Shown here piece by piece: positions 22,073 to 55,734 of a stretch of 64,000 nt of DNA (positions are counted from its first letter, which is position 1; every line of letters starts with the position of its first letter). The notes beneath the pieces were generated by a model. It searched no databases. It saw only the letters and a program-made list of their open reading frames with translations, and was not told where the DNA came from. The stretch lies in NCBI GenBank assembly GCA_964019335.1, contig OZ025699.1, positions 464,226 to 528,225 of the forward strand, given 5' to 3'. This DNA comes from Diplonema japonicum (Eukaryota; Protista; Euglenozoa: Diplonemea). The position numbers and the translations under genes are program-made.

Positions 22073-22279
22073 GTGTCCGACCGTGCCAATAAAGTTCACA
22101 CAGCAACGGTTTGAAAAGAAAATACAAATATTGGAAGTTGAAGCGCGACACAGATCAGCAACGTAAAGGAGAAGAGAAGAGAAGAGAAGAGAAGAAAAAT
22201 CGAGTCATATCAGATCATATCAGATCATATCAGATCACAGCAAACACATTGACAATCTAAGCTACCGCGTCAGTCTAAG

Positions 22280-24512: not shown

Positions 24513-24605
24513 CTCCATGAGGGCTCCCCCCAAACCCACCCCCCAAACCCATTCCCTCCGCCCCGTTCCCATCCTTCCAAATACAATCCGATACGCTTAT
24601 CTGAC

Positions 24606-27600: not shown

Positions 27601-28718
27601 CAACACATCTTGGGCCGAACGCGGACACATCTTTAGAGAGGTGGTGAGGAAGGCCCGAAGTAGGACGCTGGCGGTCGAGAGGAGCACGATAAGCGGGATA
27701 GAGCCGGGGGCGGACCCCAAGACGAACCGATTATGGAGGACGGCCAAGGACCCGCTCATGTCCTACAGCCTGAGACGAGTGATCGCAGGAGGGGTTCCCT
27801 ACCTAAACCCGCACGCAAATGCGAAGCGAAAGAGCGTCCCACTGGCGCCTGAAGGTGACGACAACGGTGACGACGAGGAGAACATGGGCCAGGCACCAAC
27901 GACGGAGGTATCGCACACGCAAGGATTCAGATGCGACCTGTGCAAGTCTCCACACCCGGACACGGTGACCTTACTCCGCCATCAGCTGTATGAGTGCGCC
28001 TGTGCACAAGAGGAACTGGCACTAGACGGAATGGAGCCGTTGCGCAACAGATCAGGATGGCCCCTATGTCTGGAGCTGCACGCGATACTGCCGAGGGGGC
28101 ATGTCTTCGCACACCTGGAGAAGCTGCAGCAGTACATGGCTGTGGTGGTCGGGAAACGGGATGTGGAGCTCATGCAAATAGACAACGCCAGCACACAGCC
28201 GCTGCCGTGGGTACGCAATGTGGAGGGAAGGAGATGCCTCGTGCCAACGGCGGGGGAGCTCGAAGGAGTGGGAGGAATCGTCGCAGAATTCTTGAACCCG
28301 CTGCTGCAGTGGTTGTCACAGCTACGATGGGTGAAGGAGGACACCAGCTCTGAAGTGTCAGCGGTGGAATTGGCCATCGACTTCGAATGGACGACAGGCA
28401 AGTTACTGGGAGGTCTGCTGGAAGATAGGGCTCGCAAGATCATAGCACTGATAAGAAAGCTGAACGCGGCATGCAGGGCACGGAAGAAGCCACGCCCCTT
28501 CCCAGCAGATGAACAGAAGAGAGTGAAGTCCCTCATCGCAATAGGTGGGAAGACGGCTATGGGTTCGCCAGGAGGCCCATCTTCGCCACCCACTCCACGC
28601 ACGACAAGCTGATGGAACTGAAAGCCGCTTACAAGCGAGACCGCATCACACGACTCCGCAAGACGCTCAAGGCCTCGATTGGAACGAAAGCAATGCTCCA
28701 GAAGGGGAGTATAAATAG
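24606..28718 (+). pseudogene. LINE ORF2 (APE-RT-CCHC), disrupted
   Basis: Pieces at 24606-24926, 25028-26539, 26410-26886, 26760-27041 and 27056-28612. The C-terminus (KAMLQKGSINR) is shared with the copy at 36008-37249. Confidence 0.85.
26764..26832 (+). repeat. 15-nt tandem repeat (CCCTGTCAGTCATCG) x4 inside the RT QGCPLS motif
   Basis: Directly visible; one unit is 17 nt, which causes a frameshift. Confidence 0.9.
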
Positions 28719-28777
28719 ATAGCCCCCCCCAACCCACCCAAGGGCGGCCCTCCATGAGGGGGTTTGTCCTGCACTTT

Positions 28778-28820
<43 letters not shown>

Positions 28821-29513
28821 CCCCTAGCCCTCGCTTTCTCAATCGATCAAAAAAAAAGTTTTTTTTTTTGATGTGATTGATTTTTTTTTTTTAATTATTC
28901 GTTCTCTCATTTTTTTTTTACACCCCCTCTTTTTGCTTTTTTTTGAGACTTAAGAAAGAAGAAAAGGGGGGGGGGGGGGGGGTGAAGAGGATGGGGGGAA
29001 TTGTGCAAATCTGCTCTCCCCCTGCAAAAAAAAAGAAGAAAAAAAAAACGAGCGAAAAAAAAATTGTTTTCTCTCATTTTTACTTTTTTTTTCTCCCCTT
29101 TTATTTCCCCTTCCTTCCCCCTTCTTTTACTTTTTTTTGAGACTTAAGAAAGAAGAAGGGCAAGGAGGGGATGGGGAGAGAACCGGAACATATGCTCAAA
29201 CAAAAAAAAAAAAAAAAAAAAAAAAACAAAAAAAACATATCTACCATATCTGCAAAACTTCTGCTGCCTCTCTAAATCCCCCACTGTGCTGCAGTGAATT
29301 TCCCTTCCCCCCCCACCTTTTTTTTCCCCATGCCAAAAAAAAAACGTTACTTTTATTTTTCCTCCCCCCTCCCCCATTCGTTTTCCCCCCAGCACCAACA
29401 CCAAACAGGGTTTTCTTTTGCTTCTTTTTTTTTTCTTCTTTTTTTTTTTTCTTTGGGGGAGGAGAGGGGATTTTTTTTTTGTCCCCTCTTTGGGTTTAAA
29501 AAAAAAAAAAAAA

Positions 29514-31783
29514 ATGGGGCTCACCGACGAGCAACAGGACCTGATGGAGGAGAGCTGGAAGATGGTAAACAGCGCGGGACTCGACCAGCTGGGCTTCAGG
29601 CACTACAAGATCCTGGTGCAGATGGGCGGCGACGAAATCAGAACCATGTTTATGTACACCCATCTGGACAGACAGCAGAAAATGCTTATATCAACAATGA
29701 AATGGATGATGTTCAACGTGAATAACTCGGAAGGGCTGAGAAGGCTAGCCCTATACCACGCGCACCTAAAGGTCACCGAAAGACTTTTCGGACTATTTGG
29801 AAAAGCCTTCATCGAGGCCATGAAGGAGACGGTGGGTCCTCAATTCGACCTTAAGTACCAAACAGCTTGGGCTACTGCTTATCAACTCATCGCCGACTCT
29901 TTCGTGAAATTTTTAAAAGTGTATGGGGAACAAGTAACCCGCGCTGCGAAGGAAGAAGAAGAAGTCGCAAAACGAAATACCTACAACGAGCTACGAAACT
30001 ATTTTAGAGACGAACGGGCAGAGAATTTTCTCGCCTTGTCGGACAAAGAGGGTTCCGTGTACGTCTCTCAGTACGAGCGGGAGCAGCTCCCCACATCAGT
30101 GGAACAACACGACAGGACCATGTTTCGAAAAAGGTGGTTGGTTCTAAGAGGCAGATACCTTTACATCCAGAAGAAAGAGAACCAACCTCCTCAAAACATT
30201 CTCGACTTGGGCTATTGTTCACTTGAGGACACCTCTACCCCCGGTGGAAGGCTTCCCTCCCCATCTCCCTTTTCATTCGCGCTAACCGACGATACCGGCA
30301 TGGTCACGTATTTCCTACTATCTGGTGACGATGAAAAAGAAGTCTGGGGGCAGATTCTACTCCAGGTCCTCTCAAGATTTTATTACTTAAGAGAGGCTGT
30401 TCCAAGATCAACTGGTGTGTTGTCCATCACCGTGTTAGGCGAAGAACTCATACCGAAAGAATTTTGTGAGGATGATTTTGAAATGCTTGTGCTTATAGGT
30501 AAAGGGACCTTCGGCAAGGTGTACAAGGTGAAGGAGGTTGCCACAGGGAAGATCTATGCGGTAAAGGTGTTGAAGAAATCCGCATTGAAGCGCGAGTCGC
30601 AGATCACAGACCTGAGAAACGAGAAGGGGATCTTGCTAAACATCTCGCACCCGTTCATCGTGAAGCTGCATGCTACCTTCCAGTCGAAAGACCGGCTCTT
30701 CTTACTATTCACCTTCCTCAGCGGAGGCGAGTTGTTCTTCCACATCCAACAGTCAGAGTCGTATTTCTCGGTATTTTTTTTTGGGGGGGGGACCAATGTT
30801 TCCAACCTCCCTGTGGTGGTTCCTGGTAATTGTGGTTTGGAGAAACACAAGCGAAAGGGAAACTCTCGTTCTAAAGCCGTACACGTGGGGAAACCTGAAC
30901 GGGGGTGGAGAGCCCACCCTACGCGTGGCGCCAGTTAGCATCGCCCTCAACGGAGAGTCCCTTATCCCATTACATCGAACAAGGAGGTGGCTTCACCAGG
31001 TCAGGCAAGTAGCCTCCCCGCGGCATCGTGCCAGTGAAGCTAGCCTCCCACAACTCTCTAGTTGGTGTTTAATTGCTTCTGTGGCCCCTCTCCCTATTTC
31101 AATTTCCAAGCTTTCTTTACCTCTCCACTTTTACTTTCTACGGGACCACAGGGGACTTGGGAGGCTTCGGGGCGAAGTTTCACAAGGGTGGCCGCTGTGT
31201 CACATACTGCATGGCACCACTAAAATCGAGACAACTTTTTTTTTTTTTTAAAGTCGATGGTGACCTTTAACGTTGATCCTGACCTGCTGAGGGTGTGCCT
31301 GCTGAGGGTGTGCCTGCTGAGGGTGTGTGCCTGCTGAGGGTGTGTGCCTGCGTCCTTTTGGTGAACTCTTCCACGTACACCTTGTCAAGCTCCACACGGC
31401 CTCCTTCGCCTAAGTGCAGCACCACCATACCAGCATCCGTCAGCACGGAAGTCCCTAGGGATTCTGACTTTATCGTTTCCCGTCGCATCTTCTTTTCTTG
31501 GATCACCATCTTATAATTGTAAAAACCCCCTTTTTTTTTTTTTTTTTTGCTTACGCTCCATATTCGCTAATGTGACCCGGCCTATGTCCTAAAAGGATTA
31601 TAAATAAAGATAATTTGTTTCCCCCTCCCCCCCCCTCCCCCAAATAAAAAACCTTCAGGAAGCCAAGTCTCGTTTCTACATCGCCGAGACCGCGCTGGCG
31701 GTGTCGTACCTCCATGAGAACAACATTGTGCATCGTGATTTGAAGGCTGAGAACCTGGTGTTGAGCGCAGAGGGGTATGATTG

Positions 31784-35635: not shown

Positions 35636-35929
35636 CCCTTCCCTTCTTACTCGGGCGGAGATGAAAAAAAAAAAAAAGAAGAAGAAAAGAAAAGAAAACT
35701 GAGAGAAAAAAAGAAAGAAAAAAAAAAAGACAAATTTTATCATGTTGTAAACCAAAGCAAAATCTCTTTTTCTTTTCTCGCTTTTCTCTTTTTTTTTTTT
35801 TTTTTTTTTTCCGTGCAAGAATGAGTATTTTGACTTGAAAAGCACTTGGAGGGGGGGGGGGGGGGGGGGCAACGTGTTTACGGGTTATAAAACTTCTCCA
35901 AGTTTTTAGCCAATTCCTTTTTTTTTTTT

Positions 35930-37312
35930 CGATCCCCTCTCCTATGTGATATACCACTCCCTGAAGGTGGTGTCCGGAGCGCTCGACGACGAACGACTAC
36001 GACAGAGATGCATGCGGATCGCTGCGGGGTACGGCACGGGGTCCACCCCGATGGGACCAGTAGGCAACCTGGTCTGTCGGTGGCTCCCCTATATAGGATG
36101 GAGCTGGGCGCAATTGCTAGACTGTGGGAACAAACCCTGGCCGAACGCGGACACGTCTTTAGGGACGCGGTGAGGAAAGCCCGGAGCAGGTCGCTGGCGA
36201 ACGAGAGGAACACAGTGAGAGGGATGGAGGCGGGAGCGGATCCCAAAACCAACCAACTATGGAAAACAGCCAAAGACCCGCTCATGTCCTACTGCCTGAG
36301 ACGGGTTATCACCGGAGGGGTCCCCTACCTTAGCCCGCATGCAGGAACGAATCAAAGAAGCGTCCCCCTGGCACCAGAAGGTGACGGCACCGAAGAAGTC
36401 GAAGAGAGCATAAGCCAAGTCCCAACAACGACAGTATCACGCACACAAGGGTTCAGGTGCGACCTGTGTGAATCACCGTACCCGGACACGGTAACCCTAC
36501 TCCGCCACCAACTCTACGAGTGCGCCTGCGCACAGGAAGAGCTAGCACAGGACGGCTTGGAACCACTGCGCAACAGGACAGGATGGCCCCTATGTCTGGA
36601 ATTGCACGCGATTCTGCCGAGAGGACATGACTTTGCGTACCTAGAGAAGCTGCAACGATACTTAGCCGTGGTGGTTGAGAAACGAGACGTAGAGCTCATG
36701 CAGAAGGAGGATGTCAACACACAGCCGCTACCGTGGATTCGAAATGTGGTAGGTAAGAAATGCCCCGTTCCGATAGCTGGCGAGCTCGAAGGAATGAGCG
36801 GGGTCCTGTCCCAGTACCTGAACCCGCTGCTACAATGGTTGTCACAACTGCGCTGGGTGGAGAAGGACACCACCTCGGAGGTGTCGGCGGTGGAACTGGC
36901 CATTGACTTCGAATGGACGACCGGAAAGTCTTTGGGAGGCCTGCTGGAAGATAGGGCGCGCAGAATCAAAGCTCTCATCGTAAAGATAAACACAGCATGC
37001 AGGGCACGGAAGAAGCGACGCCCCTTCCCAGCGGACGAGAGAAAAAGAGTGAAGTCCCTCATCGCCATTGGAGGAAAGGCAGCTATTGGTTTCTCCAGGA
37101 GGCCTATTTTCGCCACCCGCTCCACGCACGACAAGCTAATGGAATTGAAAGCCGACTACAAGCGGGACCGCATCACACGACTCCGCAAGACGCTCACGGC
37201 CTCAATCGGAATGAAAGCAATGCTCCAGAAGGGGAGTATTAACAGATAGACCCCCCCCTCCCATAGGGCGGCCCTCTAGCGGGGGGCTTGTCCTGTACTT
37301 TGAGTTTTTTTT
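35930..37312 (+). mobile_element. 5'-truncated, diverged copy of the SL-headed LINE (ORF2 C-terminus and 3' end)
   Basis: ORFs 35946/36008-37249 align by eye with 27400-28718 (YHSLKVVSGALDD, RCDLC, ELAIDFEWTTG). Same 3' hairpin followed by TTTGAG(T)n; a T-tract also flanks the 5' side. Confidence 0.92.
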
Positions 37313-42752: not shown

Positions 42753-42825
42753 TGGTCGTGACAGGGCTCGAACCTGGGACCGTTGGCTTATTAGACCAAT
42801 GCTCTACCGACTGAGCTACACGACC
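42753..42825 (-). tRNA. tRNA-Ile (AAT)
   Basis: Reverse complement GGTCGTGTAGCTCAGTCGGTAGAGCATTGGTCT-AAT-AAGCCAACGGTCCCAGGTTCGAGCCCTGTCACGACCA folds to a cloverleaf; A/B boxes present; oligo-T terminator follows. Confidence 0.95.
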
Positions 42826-42832
42826 TGACGGA

Positions 42833-43240
42833 TTTTTTTTTTTTTTTTTTTTCAAAATACCAATGCAGGGCCGCCATGGAGAGCAACACCTGAGAAAAGG
42901 GAAAAAAAAGGTGAAGGGAAACCATGGGGAAATAGGGAGGGCAATGGACCAGGCTTCTGCAAGCAGGAGGAGCCCTGGTCCCCCACCAACCCGTGCTCTG
43001 CTTTGGGACAGCCGAAGAGGGCTGAATTACATTATTCCCTCAGTCAAGTGAGAGAAAAACGGGGGCCTACCTTCCAGCTGGATGTCCTTCTTTGGCTGGA
43101 ACCTCCGGCGGAAAGCCCCCCAGGGAGGTATTGCTCCTATTGAGCGAATCATTGGTGAGTGTGAAAATAAAATAAAAAGGGGAAATGGGAAACAGTGAGA
43201 GGAAGGTGAAGGAAGGGAAAGGAAAGTGGAAAACACAACA
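42833..43240 (-). mobile_element. Family-A (tRNA-targeting) retroelement, 3'UTR + poly(A) only
   Basis: Near-identical reverse complement of 53287-53696. TSD TGACGGATTT at 42826-42835 and 43267-43276. Confidence 0.92.
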
Positions 43241-43283
43241 CGGACGGATTTTTTTGGATTTACTTTTGACGGATTTACTTTTT

Positions 43284-43400
43284 AATAATAATAATAAATA
43301 TTCCACTACCAGGCGGGAGGATCGAAGGGGAGTAGAGAAAACCATTCAAGGGAAAGGGAAAGGGACATCACTTCAAACCAAGAGAGGTGTTTGAAAGTGA
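43284..43400 (-). mobile_element. Family-B element 3' end with (TTA)n tail (second copy 46970-47090)
   Basis: AATAATAATAATAAATATTCCACTACCAGGCGGGAGGATCGAAGGGGAGTAGAGAAAAC...GAAAGTGA occurs twice. Confidence 0.7.
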
Positions 43401-43899
43401 TTCTTTACTTTTTTTTTTTCCACTACCAGGCGGGGGGGATGGGGGGCGGAGAAAGTTGAAACCATAAAAACTGGGAAGGGAAGGTTAAAAACAGTCTCTC
43501 TTACTGAGCCATATCGGGGGGGACCTCTTGCTCGTTTGCTCGACCTCTTGTATATTTTCCTGGGGCCCCCGACATCCACCTTTCTTATTTTTTCCCCATT
43601 CCCCCGCCACGCAGCTCCTGGGCCTCGAAGGCTTCGGCTGTCACCAAATAAAGACAACCCCAAATATTAAAGACGATGAGATCCCTAATTTTGATTTATC
43701 CAGCCACAGGGACCCCACCATCTGCTGGTTTTGTTGGGCTGTGGGAGCCTAAAATATAAATTTGAAAAGGAAATGTAAAAGGAAAAGTCAAGTTCAGAAC
43801 TCAACTTCCACAAAGAAGGGAGGAATGCATAACTAGAAAAGGAGCCTGGTAGGGAAAATAAAAAGAAAGGGAAACCAATGGGGGAGGGGAAAAAAAGAA

Positions 43900-43903
<4 letters not shown>

Positions 43904-43931
<28 letters not shown>

Positions 43932-45081
43932 CAAAATACCAATGCAGGGCCGCCATGGAGAGCAACACCTGAGAAAAGGGAAAAAAAAGGTGAAGGGAAA
44001 CCATGGGGAAATAGGGAGGGCAAAGGACCAGGCTTCTGCAAGCAGGAGGAGCCCTGGTCCCCCACCAACCCGTGCTCTGCTTTGGGACAGCCGAAGAGGG
44101 CTGAATTACATTATTCCCTCAGTCAAGTGAGAGAAAAACGGGGGCCTACCTTCCAGCTGGATGTCCTTCTTTGGCTGGAACCTCCGGCGGAAAGCCCCCC
44201 AGGGAGGTATTGCTCCTATTGAGCGAATCATTGGTGAGTGTGAAAAAAAAAAGGGGAAATGGGAAACAGTGAGAGGAAGGGGAAGGAAGGGAAAGGAAAG
44301 TGGGAAACACAACATTCCATTTTACACACACACACGCGGGGCGATCCCTTAGCGCAGCACGGGGGCCGCGGGACCGGCGTCAAGAGAGACCGGAGGAGGG
44401 GGCGGCACGTTTGAAGGTGCAGTGACGTCTGTAGACGCCAGGGATGATGGCGAGGTGAACAGTCCGGAGCGTGACCAGGCGAGCAGGCCAGACTCAACAA
44501 CGAGGTCGTAGATCTGGGTCACGCGTCTCGACAGGGAGAACGCTAGGGAGGGAGTACCAGCAGGAGTGTCGATCGCCCCCCTCCCGATCACAGGGCACCC
44601 ACCGACAACATGCTCCCTGGACATCGGTGCTGCGTGGCAGGCTGGGCACCGGAGCACACCCTTGTGCTTCCTGTTCGGGCCAGCAGTCTGCAGGAAGCCG
44701 AAGAAAAGGGCCGAATGACCAATCCGCAGCCGCGAGATGACCGTTTCAGCTTGTCTGGGGAAGCCAAGGGGGAAGTGCGCTGACCGAAGCTCGGTCGCCA
44801 CCGCGTAGTTGTGGGCGAGGGATGTTATGAGCTCCGCGGACCTCCGCACCACCCACCGTCGCACCAAGGCCCTCACTGATCGGTAGTCAAGGGAGGGCCT
44901 GTCCTGCTTCCGCTTCGTTCCCTCCACGGCCAGAGCGTCAGCCTTCTCGTTCCCGTCCACCCCACAGTGGGAGGGCACAAACTGGAGGACCACCGGTGTC
45001 CCCTGCGTGCGCGCCGCGGTCACCAGCCGGCTCCACGTCTGGTGGTCGAGCTTCTCCCTCTGTCGCGTTGGGCCAGCTCGC
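43904..45081 (-). mobile_element. Family-A copy (RNase H C-half, CCHC, 3'UTR, poly(A))
   Basis: ORF 44349-45122(-) encodes the same peptide as the C-terminus of 49805-53257. Confidence 0.93.
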
Positions 45082-45138
45082 TGCGATCCCACCCACCAGG
45101 TAGCACCTGGGTCTCGAGGCATTAGCCGTCTCCTGTAA

Positions 45139-45273
45139 CAAGAGACGACCTCCCAGATTTTAAGAACCTTGGTGGAGTTTCAATTGTGAATAAATTAACC
45201 AGCTGACTGTGAAACTCCAGTCTGCTGGACTTGTTGGGCTTTCGGGAGCCAAAATTCAATTCATTTAAGTTTC

Positions 45274-45305
<32 letters not shown>

Positions 45306-45571
45306 CTTTTTTTTTTTCCCCCAAGATAAAAGACTTCAAATCAAGCTCGATCGTGTACACCAAAACTTGACTTTTCTGCCTTTTTTCTTTTTTTTTTTTT
45401 TCTTTTTTTTTTTTGAAAGGTGAGTGAAAAGTTCGAATAACACTGGGGGCGGGGGACAGGGGCCTGGTAATGGAAAATAAGGGAAGACACTAGGGAGGGA
45501 GGGGAAAGAATGGATAGGAGTGAATTGTAATTTAAAAAAATCCGTTGTATGAAGATGAACAGTACAGCTTC
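45139..45571 (+). mobile_element. Inverted 5' segment of the family-A derivative (homolog of 47218-47793)
   Basis: CAAGAGACGACCTCCCAGATTTTAAGAACCTTGG ... GATGAACAGTACAGCTTC is shared with 47218-47793. Confidence 0.8.
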
Positions 45572-45574
45572 AAA

Positions 45575-46550
45575 CTCAGGATAATTTAAAAGAAAAGTAT
45601 ATAATATATAAAGGGGTTTTAATCTTATAATTGGTTATACGGTGTCGGTCACAACAGGCCCTGCTGTTCCAAGAATTGTACGGTTTTCTCGGCGTCTGTT
45701 GACGTGGGGCCCTGAGCGAAGGAAGGGAGGAACCGAAGATCTGACTTCTCTGGTCAGCTATACCATCGTCCTGGCATTCTTTCAGGAGGTGGCTCAGCGT
45801 CTGAGGCATCGAACAAAGGTGGCATGTGACCACATCGGCCGGGGGATTGAGTAGATACCCGCTTATGAAGGGGCTCTTCCCCACTCTCAGCCTCATGATC
45901 GCAACTTCTTGTTCCCTGTTTAGCTCTTCAAACTTCTCGAAATTCCCTGCGAAAAGCTCTCGGTATGTCTCCTTGACACCCGTTTTTTTCCAGAAGAGGA
46001 GGTGGCTCGCCTGACCCCATACGAAGCTTTTCTCTCCCCTCGCAACAGTATCGCAGCAGCTCCTCCGTTCCTGCCGTCCTTCAATGACCCGTCTGTGAAG
46101 ATCATGCAGAAGGCTTTTCCGTGCTTCTCGATAAGCCGGTTCAGAGTGTCCTCTGTTGCTTTCCTTCTGACTTCACTGGTGTCCGATCTCTTCACATGTA
46201 TGTCGAGGAAGGGGGCCAGTATCAGTTTACCCTCGAATCTCTGCCAAGGTGTAACTCTGTACTTCTTTTCGAAGGCATAACCTGAGAACGGTGTTGCCGC
46301 TCTCTCTGGTAGATTGTAGGCCCTGGCTGCCTCCCTTTGTCGATCTGACCATGTTTCTTCGGGAAAAGTACCTCGTATCTGGTCAGATCCTTCAGGGGTT
46401 GCGTAGCTTGAAAGGCAGCTGTGTTCTCCTTCCTAATGATGGACTCGTACAGCAGTAAACTGTCGTGTTCGATCAGCGCATCGAGTGTCCACAAGCCAGC
46501 CTCGTTTAGTGTAGCGAATGTCTCTGATGACGCTACACATCCTGTGATCG
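45575..46550 (-). pseudogene. Divergent ingi/I-like retrotransposon fragment (RT-RNase H linker, RNase H start, CCHC), internally deleted
   Basis: ITGCVASSETFATLNEAGL, KRSDTSEVRRKATE, IFTDGS and RLRVGKS...CHLC...HLLKEC parallel family-A motifs ITGC...LAEAGL, YTDGS and RLRIGHS...CPAC...H. Confidence 0.8.
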
Positions 46551-47217
46551 TTACTTTTAATAATAATAATAATAAATGAACCACTGACGTGCGAAGCAAA
46601 GGCTGGGGGGGGGGGGATAGAACAGGTGACCAAGGGTCTCCCTGTATCTAACGAAAGGGGGAAAGGAATGAGATAACCTTGAAACTTCCGCTAAATTATC
46701 CATACGTACCGAGGACGGAGGTGGAGCCGGTACGTGGTTCCAGTGTTCGCGACTTCGCCCACCTCCGTGACCCCGGCAGCTCTTCAGCCCGCTTCCCAAG
46801 CCAGCACCCTTCGGGCGAACCTCCGGGTTTTTGAGGAGTGGGGTACCTCGTCCGTGCTCGCCCTCACGAGCGGCACACTGGCACGGAGGCATCCCCTTCA
46901 GCCAGCTTTGTTGGGCGGCGGAGCCTTAGAAAATTCAAAACAATGGAAAATGATACGGGATTTACTTTTAATAATAATAATAAATATTCCACTACCAGGC
47001 GGGAGGATCGAAGGGGAGTAGAGAAAACAATTCAAGGGAAAGGGGAAAGGGACATCACTTCAAACCAAGAAGAGTGTTCGAAAGTGACTTGTGAAAAGCA
47101 ATCTCTGTTGCTGAGCCATTGGTCGAGGGGTCCTGGTCCGCCTCCCTGCAGTACATTACTTGGACCCCCTCACCACGCTCTTTTCATAATAAAATCGATC
47201 CCAGCCGCCTCTAGTAG

Positions 47218-49624
47218 CAAGAGACGACCTCCCAGATTTTAAGAACCTTGGAGGAGTTTCAATTGTGATTAAATTAACCAGCTGACTGTGAAACTCCACC
47301 GTCTGCTGGACTTGTTGGGCTTTCGGGAGCCAAAAATTCAATTCTTTTAAGTTTCGTTCTTTTTTTTACCACCGCAGTAGGAACCCGCCAGAGCCCCCAG
47401 AACGGGGACAACGGGGACTAAGAACAGCGCGGCCGGTGAGCGCAAAAACGCATACCTTAAAAGAATAGTTTTTTTTTTCTTTTTTCTTTTTTTTTTTTTT
47501 TTCTTCTTCTTTTTTTTTCCCAAGATAAAAGACTCAAAATCAAGCTCGATCGTGTACACCAAAACTTGACTTTTCTGCCTTTTTACTTTTTCTTTTTCTT
47601 TTTTTCTTCTTTCTTTTTTTTTTTTTTGATAGGTGAGTGAAAAGTTCGAATAACACTGGGGGCGGGGGACAGGGGCCTGGTAATGGAAAATAAGGGAAGA
47701 CACTAGGGAGGGAGGGGAAAGAATGGATAGGAGTGAATTGTAATTTAAAATAAAATAAAAAATCCGTTGTATGAAGATGAACAGTACAGCTTCGGGTTTG
47801 CCATTCATGCCTCTGTGGCCCCCAGCGCTGCCTCCGTGGCCTCCAACGCTTCCAGCGCCGCCAATGCGGCCAACAGAGCCACCGTGGCTTCCAATGCTGC
47901 CTCTGCAGCCAACCAGGCCCCTGCGGCTAACAACGACTCCGCGGCACCTAATGCCGCCAACGCCGCCACTGCGGCCAAACGCGCCCACGAGGCCACCAAC
48001 ACCACCAACGCCGCTGCTGCGGCCAACAGCTCCGCCAACGCCGCTACCGCGGCCAAACACGCCCCCGGGGCCAACAAGAAAGCCGAACCCACGACCGAGA
48101 CCGCCGCGTCCACGCCGGCCAAAACCGCCTCAGACACCTGGGAGGAGAAGCGGGTCTCGCTGGTCCCCGAACTATGGGACGGCGAAGTGATACACCCAGA
48201 GAAGACAGGGGGGAAATCCCGAGGGGTCATCCTTACAAGGAACCCGGAGGTCTTCCTCAAGCACCACACCAACAAGCACGGATCATGGACAGTGCTCTCA
48301 CTGAAGCCCTTCTCAGGGTCCTCATCTGCCACCTTGTTCACCAAACAGGGTATCAAGACTATGCACCTTATTGAGCTTAAGGGCGACGGTCCACCACCCC
48401 CGAAGTACACTGCTCCTAGAACAGTCCAGACAACCGCGACCCCTCGTCGAGCAGCTGCGAGCTGGCCCAACGCGACAGAGGGAGAAGCTCGACCACCAGA
48501 CGTGGAGCCGGCTGGTGACCGCGGCGCGCACGCAGGGGACACCGGTGGTCCTCCAGTTTGTGCCCTCCCACTGTGGGGTGGACGGGAACGAGAAGGCTGA
48601 CGCTCTGGCCGTGGAGGGAACGAAGCGGAAGCAGGACAGGCCCTCCCTTGACTACCGATCAGTGAGGGCCTTGGTGCGACGGTGGGTGGTGCGGAGGTCC
48701 GCGGAGCTCATAACATCCCTCGCCCACAACTACGCGGTGGCGACCGAGCTTCGGTCAGCGCACTTCCCCCTTGGCTTCCCCAGACAAGCTGAAACGGTCA
48801 TCTCGCGGTTGCGGATTGGTCACTCGGCTCTCTTCTTCGGCTTCCTGCAGACTGCTGGCCCGAACAGGAAGCACAAGGGTGTGCTCCGGTGCCCAGCCTG
48901 CCACGCAGCGCCGATGTCCAGGGAGCATGTTGTCGGTGGGTGCCCTGTGATCGGGAGGGGGGCGATCGACACTCCTGCTGGTACTCCCTCCCTAGCCTTC
49001 TCCCTGTCGAGACGCGTGACCCAGATCTACGACCTCGTTGTTGAGTCTGGCCTGCTCGCCTGGTCACGCTCCGGACTGTTCACCTCGCCATCATCCCTGG
49101 CGTCTACAGACGTCACTGCACCTTCAAACGTGCCGCCCCCTCCTCCGGTCTCTCTTGACGCCGGTCCCGCGGCCCCCGTGCTGCGCTAAGGGATCGCCCG
49201 CGTGTGTGAAAAGTGAAATGTTGCTTTTTCCACTTTCCTTTCCCATCCTTCCCCTTCCTCTCACTGTTTCCCATTTCCCCTTTTTTTTTTATTTTCACAC
49301 TCACCAATGATTCGCTCAATAGGAGCAATACCTCCCTGGGGGGCTTTCCGCCGGAGGTTCCAGCCAAAGAAGGACATCCAGCTGGAAGGTAGGCCCCCGT
49401 TTTTCTCTCACTTGACTGAGGGAATAATGTAATTCAGCCCTCTTCGGCTGTCCCAAAGCAGAGCACGGGTTGGTGGGGGACCAGGGCTCCTCCTGCTTGC
49501 AGAAGCCTGGTCCTTTGCCCTCTTGCCCTCCCTATTTCCCCATGGTTTCCCTTCACCTTTTTTTCCCCTTTTCTCAGGTGTTGCTCTCCATGGCGGCCCT
49601 GCATTGGTATTTTGAAAAAAAAAA
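47218..49624 (+). mobile_element. Internally deleted family-A derivative: 5' structured region, ORF1-like start (47767-48440) joined to RNase H/3'UTR/poly(A) (48441-49624)
   Basis: 48441-49624 matches 52509-53696. The upstream Ala/Asn-rich ORF is cut at the junction. Poly(A) ends 7 nt before tRNA-Gly. Confidence 0.75.
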
Positions 49625-49631
49625 CTGTAAG

Positions 49632-49702
49632 GCGTAAATGGTCTAGTGGTAGAATGGCTCCCTGCCACGGAGTCGGCCCGGGTTCGATTCCCGGTTTACG
49701 CA
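49632..49702 (+). tRNA. tRNA-Gly (GCC)
   Basis: GCGTAAATGGTCTAGTGGTAGAATGGCTCCCT-GCC-ACGGAGTCGGCCCGGGTTCGATTCCCGGTTTACGCA, followed by TTTTTT. Confidence 0.95.
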
Positions 49703-49769
49703 TTTTTTCCCTGACCACTTCACTCTCCTACCATTGGACATATAGAGAAAAGCCCCACCCGAAGGCATG

Positions 49770-52700
49770 AGCCGAAGACTTAGAGAAAAGCCCCACCCGA
49801 AGGCATGAGCCGAAGGCTTGAGCCGAAGACGCTGGGCACGTGGGGCTCCGATCATAGTCCCGTATCCTTTCACCTGCCTCTTGAGGACGTCTACCGTTCG
49901 GAGCGCCCCTTCCCCACCTGGAATTTCAAAAAAGCCAGATGGGATGACTACACTGCTGCTGTTGCCCGCCTGCTTGCTGGTGTTGACACGGCGGCTCCGA
50001 TTGACTCTGTCACGAAGGGGTTTACACAAGCCCTTTTGACTGCGGCGAACGACCACATTCCCCTCTGTGGGATGCGACGTGGCCCGACCCCCTGGTGGAC
50101 TGCTGAGCTCGAGGACGCCTTCGAAGAGCGGAACACCCTGCGCGAACTCCTGCTTCAAGAGGCGGACGTGGTGGAGGAGTACAGGGCGAAGGTGAAGGAA
50201 GTCAACCGACTCCTTGACGAGACGAAGCGTGAGGCATGGGGAAGGATGGCGGCCGACCTCAGCCGGAGCAAGGACCTCGGGGCTGCGTTCAGAGCGGTGA
50301 AGAAGCTGGACGGCAGGCACCGAAAGACACACCTTCCTGTACTCGAGGGAAGATTTGTGTCGGACAAGGCGAAGGCCGACCGGCTGGGGGCGCACTTCGC
50401 TAAGCTCTACGGCAGGCGTGGTGACGGGAACTCGAAGGACGCCGCTCCTTCTGCAAGCAGACTCGGGTGTCAAGCGTTCACCGTGGACGACCTCACCCGC
50501 GGCCTGAGAAGGATGAAGACGCGCAGCGCGGCCGGGGAAGACGGAATCTTCTCGGAGATGCTCCTACACCTGAACACGGACTCCCTCGGTGTCCTCCTTC
50601 TACTCCTCAATCGCTCCTGGCTGATGGGTGTCGTCCCCGGTGCCTGGAAGAAGGGAGTGATCGTCCCGGTACCGAAACCTGGAAAAGATGCGACTCTCTT
50701 GGCTTCCTACCGGCCGATCTGCCTGACCAGCTGCCTCTGCAAGCTGCTGGAGAGGATGATCGAGGAGAGGCTCACGTTTCTTCTTGACGCGGACGGGACG
50801 GGAGTCGAGGGACTCCACGACAGCCAGGCTGGTTTCAGACGCGGCCGCTCCACGGAGGAGCAGGTGGCAACCCTCACTGAGTGCATGTCGAGGAACAAAG
50901 ACGATCGACGTCTCTCGGCCGCTCTGCTGTTCGACTTCTCTTCTGCCTTCGACCTGGTGCCCCATGGTGCCCTGCTGGACAAGATGCGAGGGAAGGGTCT
51001 CCCCGAACCCTTCGTGGAGTGGACGCGGTCCTTTCTATGCGGCCGTACTGCCGCGGTCACGATTGGACGGTCGAGGGGGTCGACGACGAAGGTGCGACGG
51101 GGTGTCCCCCAGGGCTCTGTCTTGGGTCCCATCCTGTACACCATCTACGTCGACGAACTCGCCAGGAGACTGGAGGGACTGGCGGACGTCTCGGTGCTCT
51201 ACGCCGACGACGTGGCGGTTGTGATCTCCTCTGGACAAGGGGACGTGGCTGGGCTGGAGCGGAAGGCGCAGGCAGTGGTGGAAGCGGTTGAGGACTGGTG
51301 CAGGGAGCGTGACATGCTGCTGAGCACGTCCAAGACGCAGGCAGTCTGCGTCCCCCCCCAGAAACGTCTCGGGGTCTACTTCACTTCGTCACGAGTCCCC
51401 CTTCAGCCAGGTGCCTTCCAGAACCCACTCTTCGGCCTGGGGGTGAACGCCGATGGCACGATCTCCGGGGACCAGGAGTTGGCGGGCCTTCAGGTTGTGG
51501 AGGCGGGTGGTGTGCGGATCCGCTGCGTGCGGGACATGCATGCAGCCGTGCGACGGCCCGACGTGGATTACGTTGCGGCCCGTCCCCTGCCTCTGTCTGA
51601 ACACGCGAGGTACCTTGGGGTTACGGTGGACTCTGGGCTCACGTTCGGTGAACACGCACAGGACATCCTACGGCGGGCCAGCAAAAGGCTGAGGGTGCTG
51701 AAGCTCTTGTCCGGCACGTCCTGGGGCAGCAAGAGGGACACTCTGCGGTCTCTCTACGTTACGTACATCCTCCCGCTGCTGCGCTACTGCATGGGGGTCT
51801 ACTACAGCAGGCTCGATGATGTCGGGAGGAAGGACCTGGCTGGGCTTCACCAGGAGGCGGCGGTGCTGATCACGGGCTGCTGGAGTGGCTCCGGAGGGTA
51901 CAAGCTCCTAGCAGAGGCAGGACTGCTTCCCCTCGAAAGAATGGCGGAGGGTGCTGCGGCGACGATGACGGCGAAGGCCTTCTGCTGGCAGTCTTCCCCG
52001 GTTCACAGGGAGACGGTCAAGCTGAAGCAGGCGAACAGGCTGGGGTGTGGGTGGCTGCGCTCTGGCTACCAAGCACTGCGTCGATGCGGGTTGGAACCAA
52101 AGGTGCACTTCGAGTACCTGTCGGCCACGCCCCTGGCGGCCCCGTGGCAGACAGGCATGGTCGACTTCAGGACTGACCTCCCCGGCGGGGTCACGCGATC
52201 GTCGCCAGACGCGGACAGGCGGAAGGCGGCCGAGGCTGCTCTTGCGGCTCTCCCCCCGGGCATCCATGCCTACACGGATGGCTCGGTTGTACAGGTCGGA
52301 CAGAAGGCGAAAGGTGGCTCTGGGGTTTATCTGCAGCTGCCTCCCCCCCTGACCCCTGTGTCTGTGTGCCATGGCGTCAACGACTTCTGTTCATCTTTTC
52401 GGGCAGAGGGCATGGCTGTGAAAACGGCGCTGGATATGGTGGCTACCCTCCGAAAAACACACCCTTCGCTGGCGAAGTCCCCGCTGTCGATCTGCACCGA
52501 CTCCCTCTCCCTCGTCGAGCAGCTGCGAGCTGGCCCAACGCGACAGAGGGAGAAGCTCGACCACCAGACGTGGAGCCGGCTGGTGACCGCGGCGCGCACG
52601 CAGGGGACACCGGTGGTCCTCCAGTTTGTGCCCTCCCACTGTGGGGTGGACGGGAACGAGAAGGCTGACGCTCTGGCCGTGGAGGGAACGAAGCGGAAGC

Positions 52701-53696
52701 AGGACAGGCCCTCCCTTGACTACCGATCAGTGAGGGCCCTGGTGCGACGGTGGGTGGTGCGGAGGTCCGCGGAGCTCATAACATCCCTCGCCCACAACTA
52801 CGCGGTGGCGACCGAGCTTCGGTCCGCGCACTTCCCCCTTGGCTTCCCCAGACAAGCTGAAACGGTCATCTCGCGGCTGCGGATTGGTCACTCGGCTCTC
52901 TTCTTCGGCTTCCTGCAGACTGCTGGCCCGAACAGGAAGCACAAGGGTGTGCTCCGGTGCCCAGCCTGCCACGCAGCACCGATGTCCAGGGAGCATGTTG
53001 TCGGTGGGTGCCCTGTGATCGGGAGGGGGGCGATCGACACTCCTGCTGGTACTCCCTCCCTAGCCTTCTCCCTGTCGAGACGCGTGACCCAGATCTACGA
53101 CCTCATTGTTGAGTCTGGCCTGCTCGCCTGGTCACGCTCCGGACTGTTCACCTCGCCATCATCCCTGGCGTCTACAGACGTCACTGCACCTTCAAACGTG
53201 CCGCCCCCTCCTCCGGTCTCTCTTGACGCCGGTCCCGCGGCCCCCGTGCTGCGCTAAGGGATCGCCCGCGTGTGTGTAAAGTGAAATGTTGTGTTTTCCA
53301 CTTTCCTTTCCCTTCCTTTCCCTTCCTTCACCTTCCTCTCACTGTTTCCCATTTCCCCTTTTTATTTTATTTTCACACTCACCAATGATTCGCTCAATAG
53401 GAGCAATACCTCCCTGGGGGGCTTTCCGCCGGAGGTTCCAGCCAAAGAAGGACATCCAGCTGGAAGGTAGGCCCCCGTTTTTCTCTCACTTGACTGAGGG
53501 AATAATGTAATTCAGCCCTCTTCGGCTGTCCCAAAGCAGAGCACGGGTTGGTGGGGGACCAGGGCTCCTCCTGCTTGCAGAAGCCTGGTCCTTTGCCCTC
53601 CCTATTTCCCCATGGTTTCCCTTCACCTTTTTTTTCCCTTTTCTCAGGTGTTGCTCTCCATGGCGGCCCTGCATTGGTATTTTGAAAAAAAAAAAA
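49770..53696 (+). mobile_element. Family-A ingi/I-group-like non-LTR retrotransposon, 5'-truncated, with 11-bp TSD CCGAAGGCATG
   Basis: Uninterrupted ORF, ~430-nt 3'UTR, poly(A) at 53685-53696. TSD at 49759-49769 (again at 49797-49807) and 53697-53707. Confidence 0.95.
49805..53257 (+). CDS. Retrotransposon pol: APE C-terminal remnant, reverse transcriptase, RNase H, CCHC finger (N-terminally truncated)
   Basis: GSDHSPV; YRPICLTS, QAGFRRGRST, DFSSAFD, GVPQGSVLGP, YADD, RYLGV; RNase H YTDGS/AE/TDS/VPSHCGVDGNEKAD; CPAC..H..C. Confidence 0.93.
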   Translation: MSRRLEPKTLGTWGSDHSPVSFHLPLEDVYRSERPFPTWNFKKARWDDYTAAVARLLAGVDTAAPIDSVTKGFTQALLTAANDHIPLCGMRRGPTPWWTAELEDAFEERNTLRELLLQEADVVEEYRAKVKEVNRLLDETKREAWGRMAADLSRSKDLGAAFRAVKKLDGRHRKTHLPVLEGRFVSDKAKADRLGAHFAKLYGRRGDGNSKDAAPSASRLGCQAFTVDDLTRGLRRMKTRSAAGEDGIFSEMLLHLNTDSLGVLLLLLNRSWLMGVVPGAWKKGVIVPVPKPGKDATLLASYRPICLTSCLCKLLERMIEERLTFLLDADGTGVEGLHDSQAGFRRGRSTEEQVATLTECMSRNKDDRRLSAALLFDFSSAFDLVPHGALLDKMRGKGLPEPFVEWTRSFLCGRTAAVTIGRSRGSTTKVRRGVPQGSVLGPILYTIYVDELARRLEGLADVSVLYADDVAVVISSGQGDVAGLERKAQAVVEAVEDWCRERDMLLSTSKTQAVCVPPQKRLGVYFTSSRVPLQPGAFQNPLFGLGVNADGTISGDQELAGLQVVEAGGVRIRCVRDMHAAVRRPDVDYVAARPLPLSEHARYLGVTVDSGLTFGEHAQDILRRASKRLRVLKLLSGTSWGSKRDTLRSLYVTYILPLLRYCMGVYYSRLDDVGRKDLAGLHQEAAVLITGCWSGSGGYKLLAEAGLLPLERMAEGAAATMTAKAFCWQSSPVHRETVKLKQANRLGCGWLRSGYQALRRCGLEPKVHFEYLSATPLAAPWQTGMVDFRTDLPGGVTRSSPDADRRKAAEAALAALPPGIHAYTDGSVVQVGQKAKGGSGVYLQLPPPLTPVSVCHGVNDFCSSFRAEGMAVKTALDMVATLRKTHPSLAKSPLSICTDSLSLVEQLRAGPTRQREKLDHQTWSRLVTAARTQGTPVVLQFVPSHCGVDGNEKADALAVEGTKRKQDRPSLDYRSVRALVRRWVVRRSAELITSLAHNYAVATELRSAHFPLGFPRQAETVISRLRIGHSALFFGFLQTAGPNRKHKGVLRCPACHAAPMSREHVVGGCPVIGRGAIDTPAGTPSLAFSLSRRVTQIYDLIVESGLLAWSRSGLFTSPSSLASTDVTAPSNVPPPPPVSLDAGPAAPVLR

Positions 53697-53707
53697 CCGA
53701 AGGCATG

Positions 53708-53779
53708 GGGCGTTTAGCTCAGTGGAAGAGCGCCCGTTTCGCATACGGGAGGTCGAGGGTTCGAACCCCTCAATGTCCA
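53708..53779 (+). tRNA. tRNA-Ala (CGC)
   Basis: GGGCGTTTAGCTCAGTGGAAGAGCGCCCGTTT-CGC-ATACGGGAGGTCGAGGGTTCGAACCCCTCAATGTCCA; G3:U70 alanine identity pair; oligo-T terminator. Confidence 0.95.
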
Positions 53780-53955
53780 CCTTTTTTTTGCGGGCCGTTG
53801 CTAACTTAGTGAATTTTTTTCTCTTTTTTGCTTTTTGCTTTTTGTTTTATCGTCTTGTCTTAAACGAAAATCTCCGGAAGGAAAAATGTCCGGAAGCCCT
53901 GACCGGCCGGATGATGTCGGACATTTTTCCTTTGGGGGGTTTCTTTCTTTTTTTT

Positions 53956-54388
53956 TTTTATTTCACTCTTCGTCATTTTCTTCACTCACTAGGGGCCTCA
54001 TTATTTAACGCGAAATGGCCATTATTTAACGCGAAACGGCCATTATTTAACGCGAAATCGCCATTATTTAACTAGTTAAATAATGAGATTTTGCAGTTAA
54101 ATAATGGCCCTTCAGAGTGAAAAAATGGGTCTTGTCGTGGAAAAAAATGCACCCAACCCCTTGAAAAATTTTTTTGGGGTGGGGGTATTTTGACTATTTT
54201 TGGCCATCTGAGGCCATTCCAGCCCTTAAAAGTGGGAATAAGTGCCTTACTTCCCCTTTAAATGCCACGGCGAAATAGCTACCCTGTATTACCTTAGGAA
54301 AATCCCCAAAAAGCTGACCTGCGTGAAAAAAAACAGCAGTGAAAGCAGTGAAGAGTGAGTGACTCAAATGACGAAGAGTGAAATAAAA
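53956..54388. mobile_element. MITE-like element with ~35-bp terminal inverted repeats and internal 21-bp phased repeats
   Basis: TTTTATTTCACTCTTCGTCATTT..TCACTCACT (53956-53990) versus its reverse complement (54354-54388). Confidence 0.75.
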
Positions 54389-54396
54389 CGACTTAC

Positions 54397-54518
54397 TTGC
54401 CGCCAAATGAGCCATTATTTAACACTCGTTACCCGTTTTTTTGCACTCGGGCCCTGCGGGCCCTCGTGCAAAAAATTCGGGAACTCGAGTTAAATAATGA
54501 CTCATTATTTGTTGGCAA
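54397..54518. repeat. ~120-bp imperfect palindrome
   Basis: AATGAGCCATTATTTAAC...TTTTTTGCAC.CGGGCCC..CGGGCCC.CGTGCAAAAAA...GTTAAATAATGACTCATT. Confidence 0.8.
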
Positions 54519-54672: not shown

Positions 54673-55734
54673 TTTTTTTTTGTACTTCAGTAAGTAGTTC
54701 TATTCTTCCCTTCGTCTTTCGAGTTCCACTCACTGCTACTACTAAAAAGAGAGAACATGGTGGCCCTTTATTATGACACCCTCTTTTTTTTCTTTCTTTT
54801 GGCCGGTGAACGCAAAAGCGCATACCTTAAAAGAATAGTTTCTTTTTAATTTTTCCAGGTGGTGAGGATAACATGAAAATATAAGAAAAACATCAGATGT
54901 GTTGTTCGCTGTTGACCTCCTCGTCGGTCATCACCGGTAGCGCCCGAGTGGAAGATCATAAAGCAGATGCTCAGGGTGACGCAGAATTTTGGTTACCCGG
55001 GACGCCCCGGCTGGGGTTGAGCTGTACACCGCACGCATTGAGGACACGGCGCGGAACGCAGAAGAAGCTACAACTCGGCCGCGGTGCGCCCCTTGTAATC
55101 AAGTAGACAGTTCTTGTGCAGGGCGCCGTCAACACCGGCCTCCTTTAACTCACATATATATAAAGGGGGGGTCCGAATATTCCCTCCCAAATAATGCGTT
55201 TTTTCCCAAATACTGTAAAACAAAAATCCACCGGAAGATAAAATATCCGGACCGCCGAAACATCCGGTGATTTTTTTCTTCTGGACATTTTATTTGGGCA
55301 CTTTTCTAAGGGGGTACCTAGCCTGACCTACGCACTGTACCCTCTGTCTGGAAAACTTATATTTCTGTTGCAAGAGTCTTAAGAACGGCAAAAATAAAAT
55401 TCAAATCCGACGAAAGCTGCATGCTCTAAAAAGGGGAAGGACATATCTCGCGACTCCTCCAGGTGCTGACCTCATCAGGTGACTGAAATGATATTGCAAG
55501 TGGGAATATCTTCAGGTGGGAGGCACCCTTCAATGGCTGCGTCCCAGCAGGTTGGAGAGTACTTTTCCCGACCAATAAAACTAAAAAAGGGGCGAGGAAA
55601 GGGCTACCTGTCCGCACGTCTGGCCGTCTTGTTTGCTGCTTAACTTACAGTCATTTCAGCTGCCTTCGCAGTCTTGGCAGTGCGCCTGGCCTCGGCCTCA
55701 GCAAGTCTTGGGCTGGCACAAATTGGTGAAGTCT

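What the first reader, a model, noticed from the sequence alone, without database searches (positions are those of the whole stretch)
42826..47090. Polarised stack of serial insertions in front of tRNA-Ile, punctuated by copies of the target
Seen (minus strand): several head-to-tail units from different families each end in a tail plus a piece of the same target AAAAGTAAATCCGTCA: (TTA)n-AAAAGTAAATCCCGTATCA (46951-46969), (TTA)n-AAAAGTAA (46551-46558), polyA-GTAA (43900-43903), (TTA)n-AAAAAGTAAATCCGTCA (43267-43283) and polyA-TCCGTCA|tRNA. No such copy is visible at the end of the 45575-46550 fragment. Inference: several lineages compete for one site; each new insertion lands next to the tRNA and pushes older ones away, leaving a chronological record, and the farthest long target copy is the mutated one.
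Basis: partly seen in the sequence, partly recalled or inferred. Interest (0 to 1): 0.8.

Follow-up and report, generated by a model that had tools for sequence, protein, structure and literature searches.

The report
Layered retrotransposon pile before diplonemid tRNA
In a marine Diplonema flagellate, eight pieces of jumping genes from five families lie head-to-tail in front of one tRNA gene, with the farther pieces more decayed, likely because each new copy is steered to the start of the tRNA gene and pushes older ones away, a habit already shown in slime moulds.

Summary
It holds eight pieces from five families. Two are LINEs with RNase H; family A matches a Diplonema japonicum APE-RT-RNase H protein at 99%. 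Three are non-coding tails. Family A also ends 7 and 11 bases before tRNA-Gly and tRNA-Ala in this window, on unrelated targets, so targeting goes by position, not sequence. Seven tail junctions from other loci carry other spacers, so AAAAGTAA is not an element end. Divergence from the family majority rises with distance: 0-0.8% for the four near units, 1.4-5.7% for the three far ones (rho 0.71-0.93). One detail fails: the 'mutated' far target copy is mostly the next element's own sequence. Two junctions have lost tail and target. The behaviour is published for Dictyostelium (TRE5-A tandems; Dp_NLTR-A 2-6 bp upstream of tRNAs); nine paper searches found no report for euglenozoans. This scan already noted the same system on three other pieces of this genome and a similar pile in a fungus. 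Verdict: new member of a known kind. Guidance by Pol III factors is inferred, not tested.

The parts
42753..42825 (-). tRNA-Ile(AAT), intact, followed by a T7 terminator; about 10 near-identical copies in the genome (rough)
   Evidence: (64.4 bits), 18 record 26, 54
42826..42853 (-). tRNA-side target remnant TCCGTCA (-7 to -1) and poly(A) tail of U7
42854..43240 (-). U7: 3' UTR of LINE family A, 5'-truncated; 1 fixed difference from the family majority in 387 nt
   Evidence: table 3, 25
43241..43283 (-). 5' junction of U7: full 17-nt target copy (43267-43283) reaching tRNA position -1, then two partial re-copies of the target
43284..43403 (-). U6: 3' end of non-coding family C with (TTA)n tail; 0 of 115 letters differ from the majority contig
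   Evidence: record 29
43413..43904 (-). U5: 5'-truncated copy of family D (family contig runs at least 680 nt further 5'); its first letters AGTAA overlap the target copy 43900-43907
   Evidence: records 31, 32 and table 7
43905..45084 (-). U4a: family A, RNase H to stop, 3' UTR and poly(A); open frame, 97.6% to P0001
45085..45571 (-). U4b: 5' part of a family C copy, cut off and fused to U4a with no tail or target copy
   Evidence: loose ends at 47195 and 47203
45572..46553 (-). U3: decayed 3' fragment of a second RNase H LINE family (32-42% to P0004), three frames, internal deletion near 46011; tail and target lost; family contig overlaps U4b by 14 nt (45558-45571)
   Evidence: (records 2, 9, 10, 11)
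46551..46558 (-). target copy AAAAGTAA; last three letters shared with U3
   Evidence: record 11
46559..46959 (-). U2: 5'-truncated copy of non-coding family E with (TTA)n tail; 7 letters + 1 gap differ in 270 nt
   Evidence: record 13
46960..46969 (-). farthest target copy AAAAGTAAAT, unmutated
46970..47793 (-). U1: long copy of family C with (TTA)n tail and an internal deletion near 47195-47203; 2.5-5.7% from the majority; no target copy found at its 5' end
   Evidence: records 14, 15, 53
47794..48440 (+). unidentified Ala/Asn-rich open frame between the two back-to-back stacks
   Evidence: no relative found
48441..49631 (+). family A 3' fragment, poly(A) to 49624, 7-nt spacer to tRNA-Gly; no matching target copy at its 5' end
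49632..49702 (+). tRNA-Gly(GCC)
49746..53707 (+). family A copy truncated inside the APE domain (RT and RNase H intact); 11-nt target duplication (49759-49769, re-copied at 49797-49807, and 53697-53707) ending at tRNA position -1
53708..53781 (+). tRNA-Ala(CGC)

Best explanation
The region is a pile of eight retrotransposon pieces from five families, likely laid down one after another by target-primed reverse transcription at a spot set by distance from the tRNA gene (first cut 7-17 bases before its first base), probably through the RNA polymerase III machinery, so that each new copy would land next to the tRNA and push older ones outward. Shown: the units, their common orientation, tails facing the tRNA, target copies at 5 of 7 internal junctions, the same placement of family A before all three tRNA genes of the window, and higher divergence in the far units. 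Inferred: (1) The APE endonuclease nicks the bottom strand 7-17 nt upstream of the mature tRNA start. (2) Reverse transcription starts on the poly(A) or (TTA)n tail and usually stops early. (3) The cDNA end pairs with the upstream target strand through 0-5 nt of microhomology, so the copy left behind is a prefix of the target of variable length; where it paired far upstream inside the previous element, or by later recombination, tail and target were lost (45084/5, about 45571). (4) The non-coding families C, D and E are 3' parts of longer elements or passengers that use the same machinery. (5) The site is chosen through TFIIIB/TFIIIC or Pol III bound at the tRNA gene; this last step rests only on analogy with TRE5-A and Ty3.
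For: Family A ends 7-10, 7 and 11 nt before tRNA-Ile, -Gly and -Ala (3 of 3 tRNA genes in the window), in the tRNA's orientation, on three unrelated target sequences. Exact 11-nt duplication at tRNA-Ala. Two copies of a LINE without an RNase H match lie about 5 and 14 kb from any tRNA. Seven junctions from other loci join a (TTA)n tail to a 5'-truncated family A, D or U3-family copy through a 6-24 nt spacer: 4 of 9 joints plus 2 further 5c rows, 1 of 7 joints. None has AAGTAA (6 checked, 1 by eye). Order: the copy left of U2 reads AAAAGTAAAT while the copy right of U2 now reads AAAAGTAA-CG (U3), so U3 came after U2 (rests on 2 letters). Divergence near to far 0.26, 0, 0.6, 0.78, 2.9, 2.6, 5.7%: rho 0.93, exact one-sided p 0.003; with the strictest count for U1 rho 0.82, p 0.017. 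Same family C, same majority contig: near copy 0 of 115, far copy 7 letters + 1 gap of 125. Precedent: de novo TRE5-A landed 46 bp upstream of an already occupied tRNA gene and formed a tandem (PMC5391098, passages).
Against: Only 3 tRNA genes could be examined; no whole genome was held. The other-locus junctions show no tRNA, have short sides of only 20-28 mostly repetitive letters, several lie below single-copy depth, and none appeared in runs X4 or X11. The gradient weakens without U4 (rho 0.71, p 0.068), and the same-interval family C contrast is 0 vs 3 substitutions (p 0.13) or 5 events (p 0.03). Family A shows no significant gradient (9/1160 vs 12/2320, p 0.36). Distance from a majority contig can reflect subfamily rather than age, and U4 was measured against two window copies only. 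Apart from U2/U3, the junctions fit either order. No target copy at the far end of U1 or at the 5' end of the tRNA-Gly copy. No test of any Pol III interaction.
Confidence: 0.8

Rival explanations
1. Sequence-driven chaining: the endonuclease prefers A-rich tail/target junctions, so each element inserts at the tail of an earlier one anywhere in the pile; the tRNA only seeded it and order does not record age.
For: Most cuts at the Ile site fall in or next to an A-run; all junctions but one pair fit either order; stacks at other loci were seen without proof of a tRNA.
Against: Cuts at Gly and Ala are in unrelated targets, the Ala one not A-rich; the U2/U3 pair gives near = younger; far units are more diverged and structurally broken; left-over target copies do not shorten steadily outward (17, 9, 8, none, 8, 10 nt).
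Confidence: 0.1
2. No targeting: elements insert broadly and survive only in safe places such as tRNA flanks; recombination and segmental duplication then built the pile.
For: Two junctions lack tail and target, one with a 14-nt overlap; both family C copies start at the same point (45571 = 47793); the original Ile-Gly spacer seems lost.
Against: Selection does not give base-pair placement 7-17 nt from +1 at 3 of 3 genes in one orientation; repeated family copies differ by 1-5% and are not recent duplicates of each other; five junctions keep target copies.
Confidence: 0.07
3. Assembly artefact: repeats were mis-chained next to a multi-copy tRNA.
For: No listed contig spans the stack; the single-copy contig stops inside the tRNA at 42774.
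Against: A mis-assembly would not place copies of this tRNA's own upstream 17-mer at five junctions; each unit has private differences; like junctions occur in public runs.
Confidence: 0.03

Closest known systems
Dp_NLTR-A (Dictyostelium purpureum); PMC5006619, passages and sections 9 and 11 read
   Same: Non-LTR element with RNase H downstream of RT, found 2-6 bp upstream of the first base of mature tRNAs.
   Different: Amoebozoan host; here cuts fall at -7 to -17 and five families share the site; sequence kinship not tested; the sections read give no multi-family stacks for NLTR-A.
TRE5-A / TRE-TRE tandems (Dictyostelium discoideum); PMC5391098, passages read
   Same: Position-specific insertion upstream of tRNA genes; a new copy lands at the preferred distance from an occupied gene and forms a tandem; target duplications and extra bases at 5' junctions.
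   Different: TRE5-A inserts about 47 bp upstream and has two ORFs (APE and RT in ORF2; ORF1 binds TFIIIB in vitro). Here the element has RNase H, the site is 7-17 nt upstream, and the pile has eight pieces.
Ty3 (yeast) and DGLT-A (dictyostelids); PMC5006619
   Same: Insertion about 12-16 bp upstream of the mature tRNA, near the transcription start, which overlaps the window seen here.
   Different: LTR elements that use an integrase; these are LINEs.
Ingi / L1Tc retroposons of trypanosomatids; PMC12278014 and PMC3708506, passages read
   Same: APE-RT-RNase H in one ORF, poly(A) tail, target duplications, short non-autonomous partners, a 2A-like motif near the N-terminus; same phylum.
   Different: No tRNA targeting mentioned in the passages read; Pr77 5' signature untested; the 2A-like motif in P0001 lacks the canonical D; no tree with named ingi sequences.

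Membership tests
Ingi clade non-LTR retrotransposon (family A) | APE, RT and RNase H in one ORF | tested here: met
   P0001 (99.2% to the window ORF) hits Exo_endo_phos and RVT_1 above cut-off and RNase_H at 33.1 bits vs 25.8; window copies are truncated inside or after APE
Ingi clade non-LTR retrotransposon (family A) | poly(A) tail and target site duplication | tested here: met
   A11-A28 tails on 4 of 4 copies; 11-nt duplication at tRNA-Ala, partial at tRNA-Ile, none found for the tRNA-Gly copy
Ingi clade non-LTR retrotransposon (family A) | 2A-like motif GD(V/I)ExNPGP before APE | tested here: inconclusive
   P0001 has GLVETNPGP (no D); relative P0002 has GDVHKNPGP; motif from PMC3708506, which also finds 2A in other clades
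Ingi clade non-LTR retrotransposon (family A) | Pr77 5' signature with ribozyme activity | not testable with these tools
   no 5' end of family A in the window and no genome held
Ingi clade non-LTR retrotransposon (family A) | RT groups with Tbingi/L1Tc in a tree | not tested
   no named ingi or L1Tc among the 120 of 195 and 39 of 39 hits listed; I therefore say 'Ingi-like' only
tRNA-gene-targeted retrotransposons (works like TRE5 / NLTR-A / Ty3) | narrow insertion window upstream of different tRNA genes regardless of sequence | tested here: met
   3 of 3 tRNA genes in the window, -7 to -17; genome-wide share unknown
tRNA-gene-targeted retrotransposons (works like TRE5 / NLTR-A / Ty3) | repeat insertions form tandems, newest next to the tRNA | tested here: met
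   target copies at 5 of 7 internal junctions; divergence gradient rho 0.71-0.93; two junctions break the pattern
tRNA-gene-targeted retrotransposons (works like TRE5 / NLTR-A / Ty3) | dependence on B box and TFIIIB/TFIIIC | not testable with these tools
   needs an insertion assay
TRE or NLTR-A family by descent | sequence kinship of RT/RNase H to dictyostelid TRE or NLTR elements | not tested
   no such sequence came from any tool; not filed as a member

The most novel reading that the evidence does not exclude
Diplonemids hold an independent origin of tRNA-start targeting in Euglenozoa, made by Ingi-like LINEs, in which at least five families share one docking route and leave datable piles at many tRNA genes. 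Both fully preserved left-hand target copies end at tRNA position -1 (within one base), which would mean that the second cut is set by the mature tRNA boundary, a geometry not given in the papers read.
Probability: 0.35. Interest if true: 0.65.

Novelty: new member of a known kind. Interest (0 to 1): 0.45.

Why it matters
It extends tRNA-gene targeting, documented in the papers read for yeasts and dictyostelids, to a third eukaryotic supergroup and probably to another LINE clade, which would be one more convergent origin. The piles give the order in which families were active, so family succession can be read at single loci. A near-intact, transcribed family A (about 110 copies by rough depth; a complete ORF is in a D. 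japonicum transcriptome) offers a way to test how a LINE finds the Pol III start. The principle itself, including newest-next-to-tRNA tandems, is already shown in Dictyostelium, which caps the interest.

Tried and rejected
1. Whole-genome test: no genome is held for this window, so the share of tRNA genes hit is unknown.
2. Strain or allele gains: no empty-site joint was listed, but the tool skipped 42824-42863, exactly the tail/tRNA junction, so this is untested. No RNA holder was listed.
3. Relatives in metagenomes: 80 loci at 22-36% identity (one 64th of the collection scanned) gave 1 tRNA call, which lies inside the matched coding stretch of L023 on the opposite strand and not behind an element end. 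The contigs are short and distant, so this says nothing on targeting.
4. 'Farthest target copy is mutated': rejected (record 13).
5. Families C, D, E as short SINEs starting at the shared GGCTCC motif: mostly rejected, since D and E contigs run 680 and 148 nt beyond the truncation points. One low-depth junction does start family D at that motif.
6. Ribozyme in that motif: no Rfam match and no convincing hit with my HDV-type descriptor.
7. Twin priming from the neighbouring tRNA-Gly copy as the source of U4: considered because orientations fit; rejected because U4 differs from that copy at about 16 of 1150 letters and the 40-nt linker is family C sequence.
8. The 47794-48440 frame as ORF1 of the 22-29 kb LINE or of a known family: no support.
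9. Clade placement by tree: no named reference sequences available.
10. Literature: searches found no report of tRNA-targeted retrotransposons in diplonemids or other euglenozoans. The D. papillatum genome paper (PMC10161547; passages; 7 supplementary files searched for four terms) does not mention it. Subscription papers, Repbase and bioRxiv supplements were not searchable.
Full report
What is there. ARAGORN and Rfam find three intact tRNA genes in the window: Ile(AAT) 42753-42825 (minus), Gly(GCC) 49632-49702 and Ala(CGC) 53708-53781. The long ORF at 49784-53257 has RT and RNase H domains and is 99.2% identical over 1152 residues to P0001, a 1383-residue APE-RT-RNase H protein whose accession label is a Diplonema japonicum transcriptome; the next relatives, at 30-44%, are labelled D. 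ambulator. I call this LINE family A. No whole genome was held, so the analysis rests on the window and on contigs of public runs.

All five junctions quoted are at their coordinates. AAAAGTAAATC occurs three times in the stack and nowhere else in the window; AAAAGTAA occurs six times against 0.31 expected. Reading away from the tRNA on the minus strand, the units are: U7, the 3' UTR of family A (42854-43240); U6, the 3' end of family C with a (TTA)n tail (43284-43403); U5, family D (43413-43904); U4a, family A from RNase H to poly(A) (43905-45084); U4b, the 5' part of a family C copy fused to U4a (45085-45571); U3, a decayed fragment of a second RNase H LINE (45572-46553; 32-42% to P0004, three frames); U2, family E with a (TTA)n tail (46559-46959); and U1, a long family C copy (46970-47793). 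That is eight pieces from five families, all facing the tRNA tail first. All families are multi-copy: single-contig depth in run X4 over the flanking single-copy contig gives roughly 113 (A), 64 (C), 22-25 (D), 26 (E) and 12-19 (U3 family) (the tool warns that depth is not a copy number, so these are rough). About 89% of the 6.8 kb between tRNA-Ile and tRNA-Gly is such sequence.

The target is not an element end. The original site reads AAAAAGTAAATCCGTCA, positions -17 to -1. Copies behind U6, U5, U4a, U2 and U1 are 17, 9, 8, 8 and 10 letters long and are all prefixes of it. In public contigs, seven junctions from other loci join a (TTA)n tail to a 5'-truncated copy of family A, D or the U3 family through spacers of 6-24 other letters (4 of 9 joints and 2 more rows of table 5c; 1 of 7 joints); none contains AAGTAA (six checked, one by eye). 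These rows have short, repetitive sides, some lie under single-copy depth, they came only from runs X1 and X2, and they do not show a tRNA. They support stacking elsewhere, not its anchor.

Targeting goes by position. Family A ends in poly(A) 7-10 nt before tRNA-Ile, 7 nt before tRNA-Gly and 11 nt before tRNA-Ala, in the tRNA's orientation, on three unrelated sequences. At tRNA-Ala the 11-nt duplication is exact and ends at -1. The earlier insertions at tRNA-Ile cut at -15/-16 (families C and E) or between -12 and -17 (hidden in A-runs). Two copies of another LINE with no RNase H match lie about 5 and 14 kb from the nearest tRNA. At both junctions where the left target copy is complete (U7 and the Ala copy) it ends at -1 within one base and is followed by re-copied pieces of target, as if the polymerase jumped back several times while joining the 5' end.

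The 5' junctions explain the short copies and remove one claim. Family contigs reach into the target copies: family D to 43904 (5 shared letters, record 32), the U3 family to 46553 (3 letters, record 11) and family E to 46959 (record 13). So CCCGTATCA at 46951-46959 is most likely U2's own sequence, and the farthest target copy is an unmutated AAAAGTAAAT. Two junctions have no tail or target: U3/U4b, where the U3 family contig overlaps U4b by 14 nt (records 2 and 9), and U4b/U4a, where the 40-nt linker is family C sequence (loose ends at 47195 and 47203). These look like deletions made during insertion or by later recombination; I cannot tell which.

Is the pile a time series? One pair is ordered by anatomy: the copy on U2's far side continues AT, as the target does, while the copy on its near side now continues with U3, so U3 arrived after U2. 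This rests on two letters. The other junctions fit either order. Divergence from the majority contig, near to far, is 1/387, 0/115, 3/503, 9/1160, 30/1027, 7/270 and 14/247 substitutions; U4 was measured against the two other long window copies, not the runs, and U4b was left out because no comparable count was listed. Spearman rho is 0.93 (exact one-sided p 0.003). With U1 counted strictly as 3/119 it is 0.82 (p 0.017), and without U4 as well it is 0.71 (p 0.068). The near four units pooled give 13/2165 and the far three, counted conservatively, 19/1028 (p 0.002, a split chosen after seeing the data). The cleanest contrast is family C against one and the same majority contig: 0 of 115 for U6, 7 letters and 1 gap of 125 for U1; on the strictly shared interval this is 3 substitutions (p 0.13) or 5 events (p 0.03). 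Family A shows no significant gradient (p 0.36). The far units also carry deletions and frameshifts. Tables 3, 4, 7 and 8 were partly cut by the tool, and distance from a majority can reflect subfamily. So near = younger is supported as a step between a young inner block and an older outer block, less firmly unit by unit.

Mechanism. The most likely account (0.8) is serial target-primed reverse transcription at a site set by the tRNA gene. Shown: anatomy, placement at 3 of 3 genes, target copies, gradient. Inferred from established knowledge of TPRT: the nick, priming on the tail, 5' truncation and microhomology joining. Inferred by analogy only: tethering to TFIIIB/TFIIIC or Pol III. Rivals are chaining into A-rich tails (0.1), survival plus recombination without targeting (0.07) and mis-assembly (0.03).

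What is known. In Dictyostelium discoideum, TREs that hit an occupied tRNA gene typically form tandems, and a marked TRE5-A landed 46 bp upstream of an occupied gene (PMC5391098, passages). Dp_NLTR-A, an RT-RNase H element of D. purpureum, sits 2-6 bp upstream of tRNAs, and Ty3 and DGLT-A about 12-16 bp upstream (PMC5006619, passages and sections 9 and 11). Family A has the domain order, tail and duplications described for Ingi elements (PMC12278014, passages) and an imperfect 2A-like motif (PMC3708506, passages); Pr77 and tree placement were not tested, so it is Ingi-like only. Nine searches, passages of the D. papillatum and Phytomonas genome papers and seven supplementary files of the former gave no report of tRNA targeting in euglenozoans; other papers in those listings were seen as listings only. 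Earlier notes of this scan describe the same system on three other pieces of this genome and a similar pile in a fungus; they are unchecked and not counted as support. One says 'exactly 12 nt'; this window shows -7 to -17.

Verdict. New member of a known kind; interest 0.45.

Noticed in passing
window 47180-47335, 45095-45255, 46770-46930, 43600-43755 (minus): Families C, D and E share a roughly 150-nt block (GGCTCC..GCCCAACAA, a long hairpin that folds in each family with different letters, then GGAGGT and a second hairpin). No Rfam match and no convincing HDV-type ribozyme fit. It may be a conserved RNA signal.
   Followed up: partly
window 47794-48440 (+): Ala/Asn-rich open frame with no start codon, fused by a few shared letters to the RNase H part of family A at 48441; no relative found.
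   Followed up: partly
window 49746-49820 and 43241-43283: Both complete 5' junctions show the target copied two or three times with bits of element between, suggesting repeated template jumps during 5' joining.
   Followed up: partly
window 45571 and 47793; 45084 and 48454: The two family C copies begin at the same base, and two family A copies are truncated within 13 nt of each other; unexplained (true 5' end, preferred stall site or shared history).
   Followed up: no
window about 22250-28800 (+) and 35900-37300 (+): A different, frameshifted LINE (APE hit below cut-off, no RNase H match) and a 3' fragment of a relative, neither near a tRNA.
   Followed up: partly
window 29298-30938 (+): ORF with globin, PH (below cut-off) and protein kinase matches in one frame.
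   Followed up: no
window 54019-54128 and 54406-54506: Two imperfect palindromes of about 100 nt with repeated CCATTATTTAAC units downstream of tRNA-Ala; 47431-47484 inside U1 matches 54801-54854.
   Followed up: no
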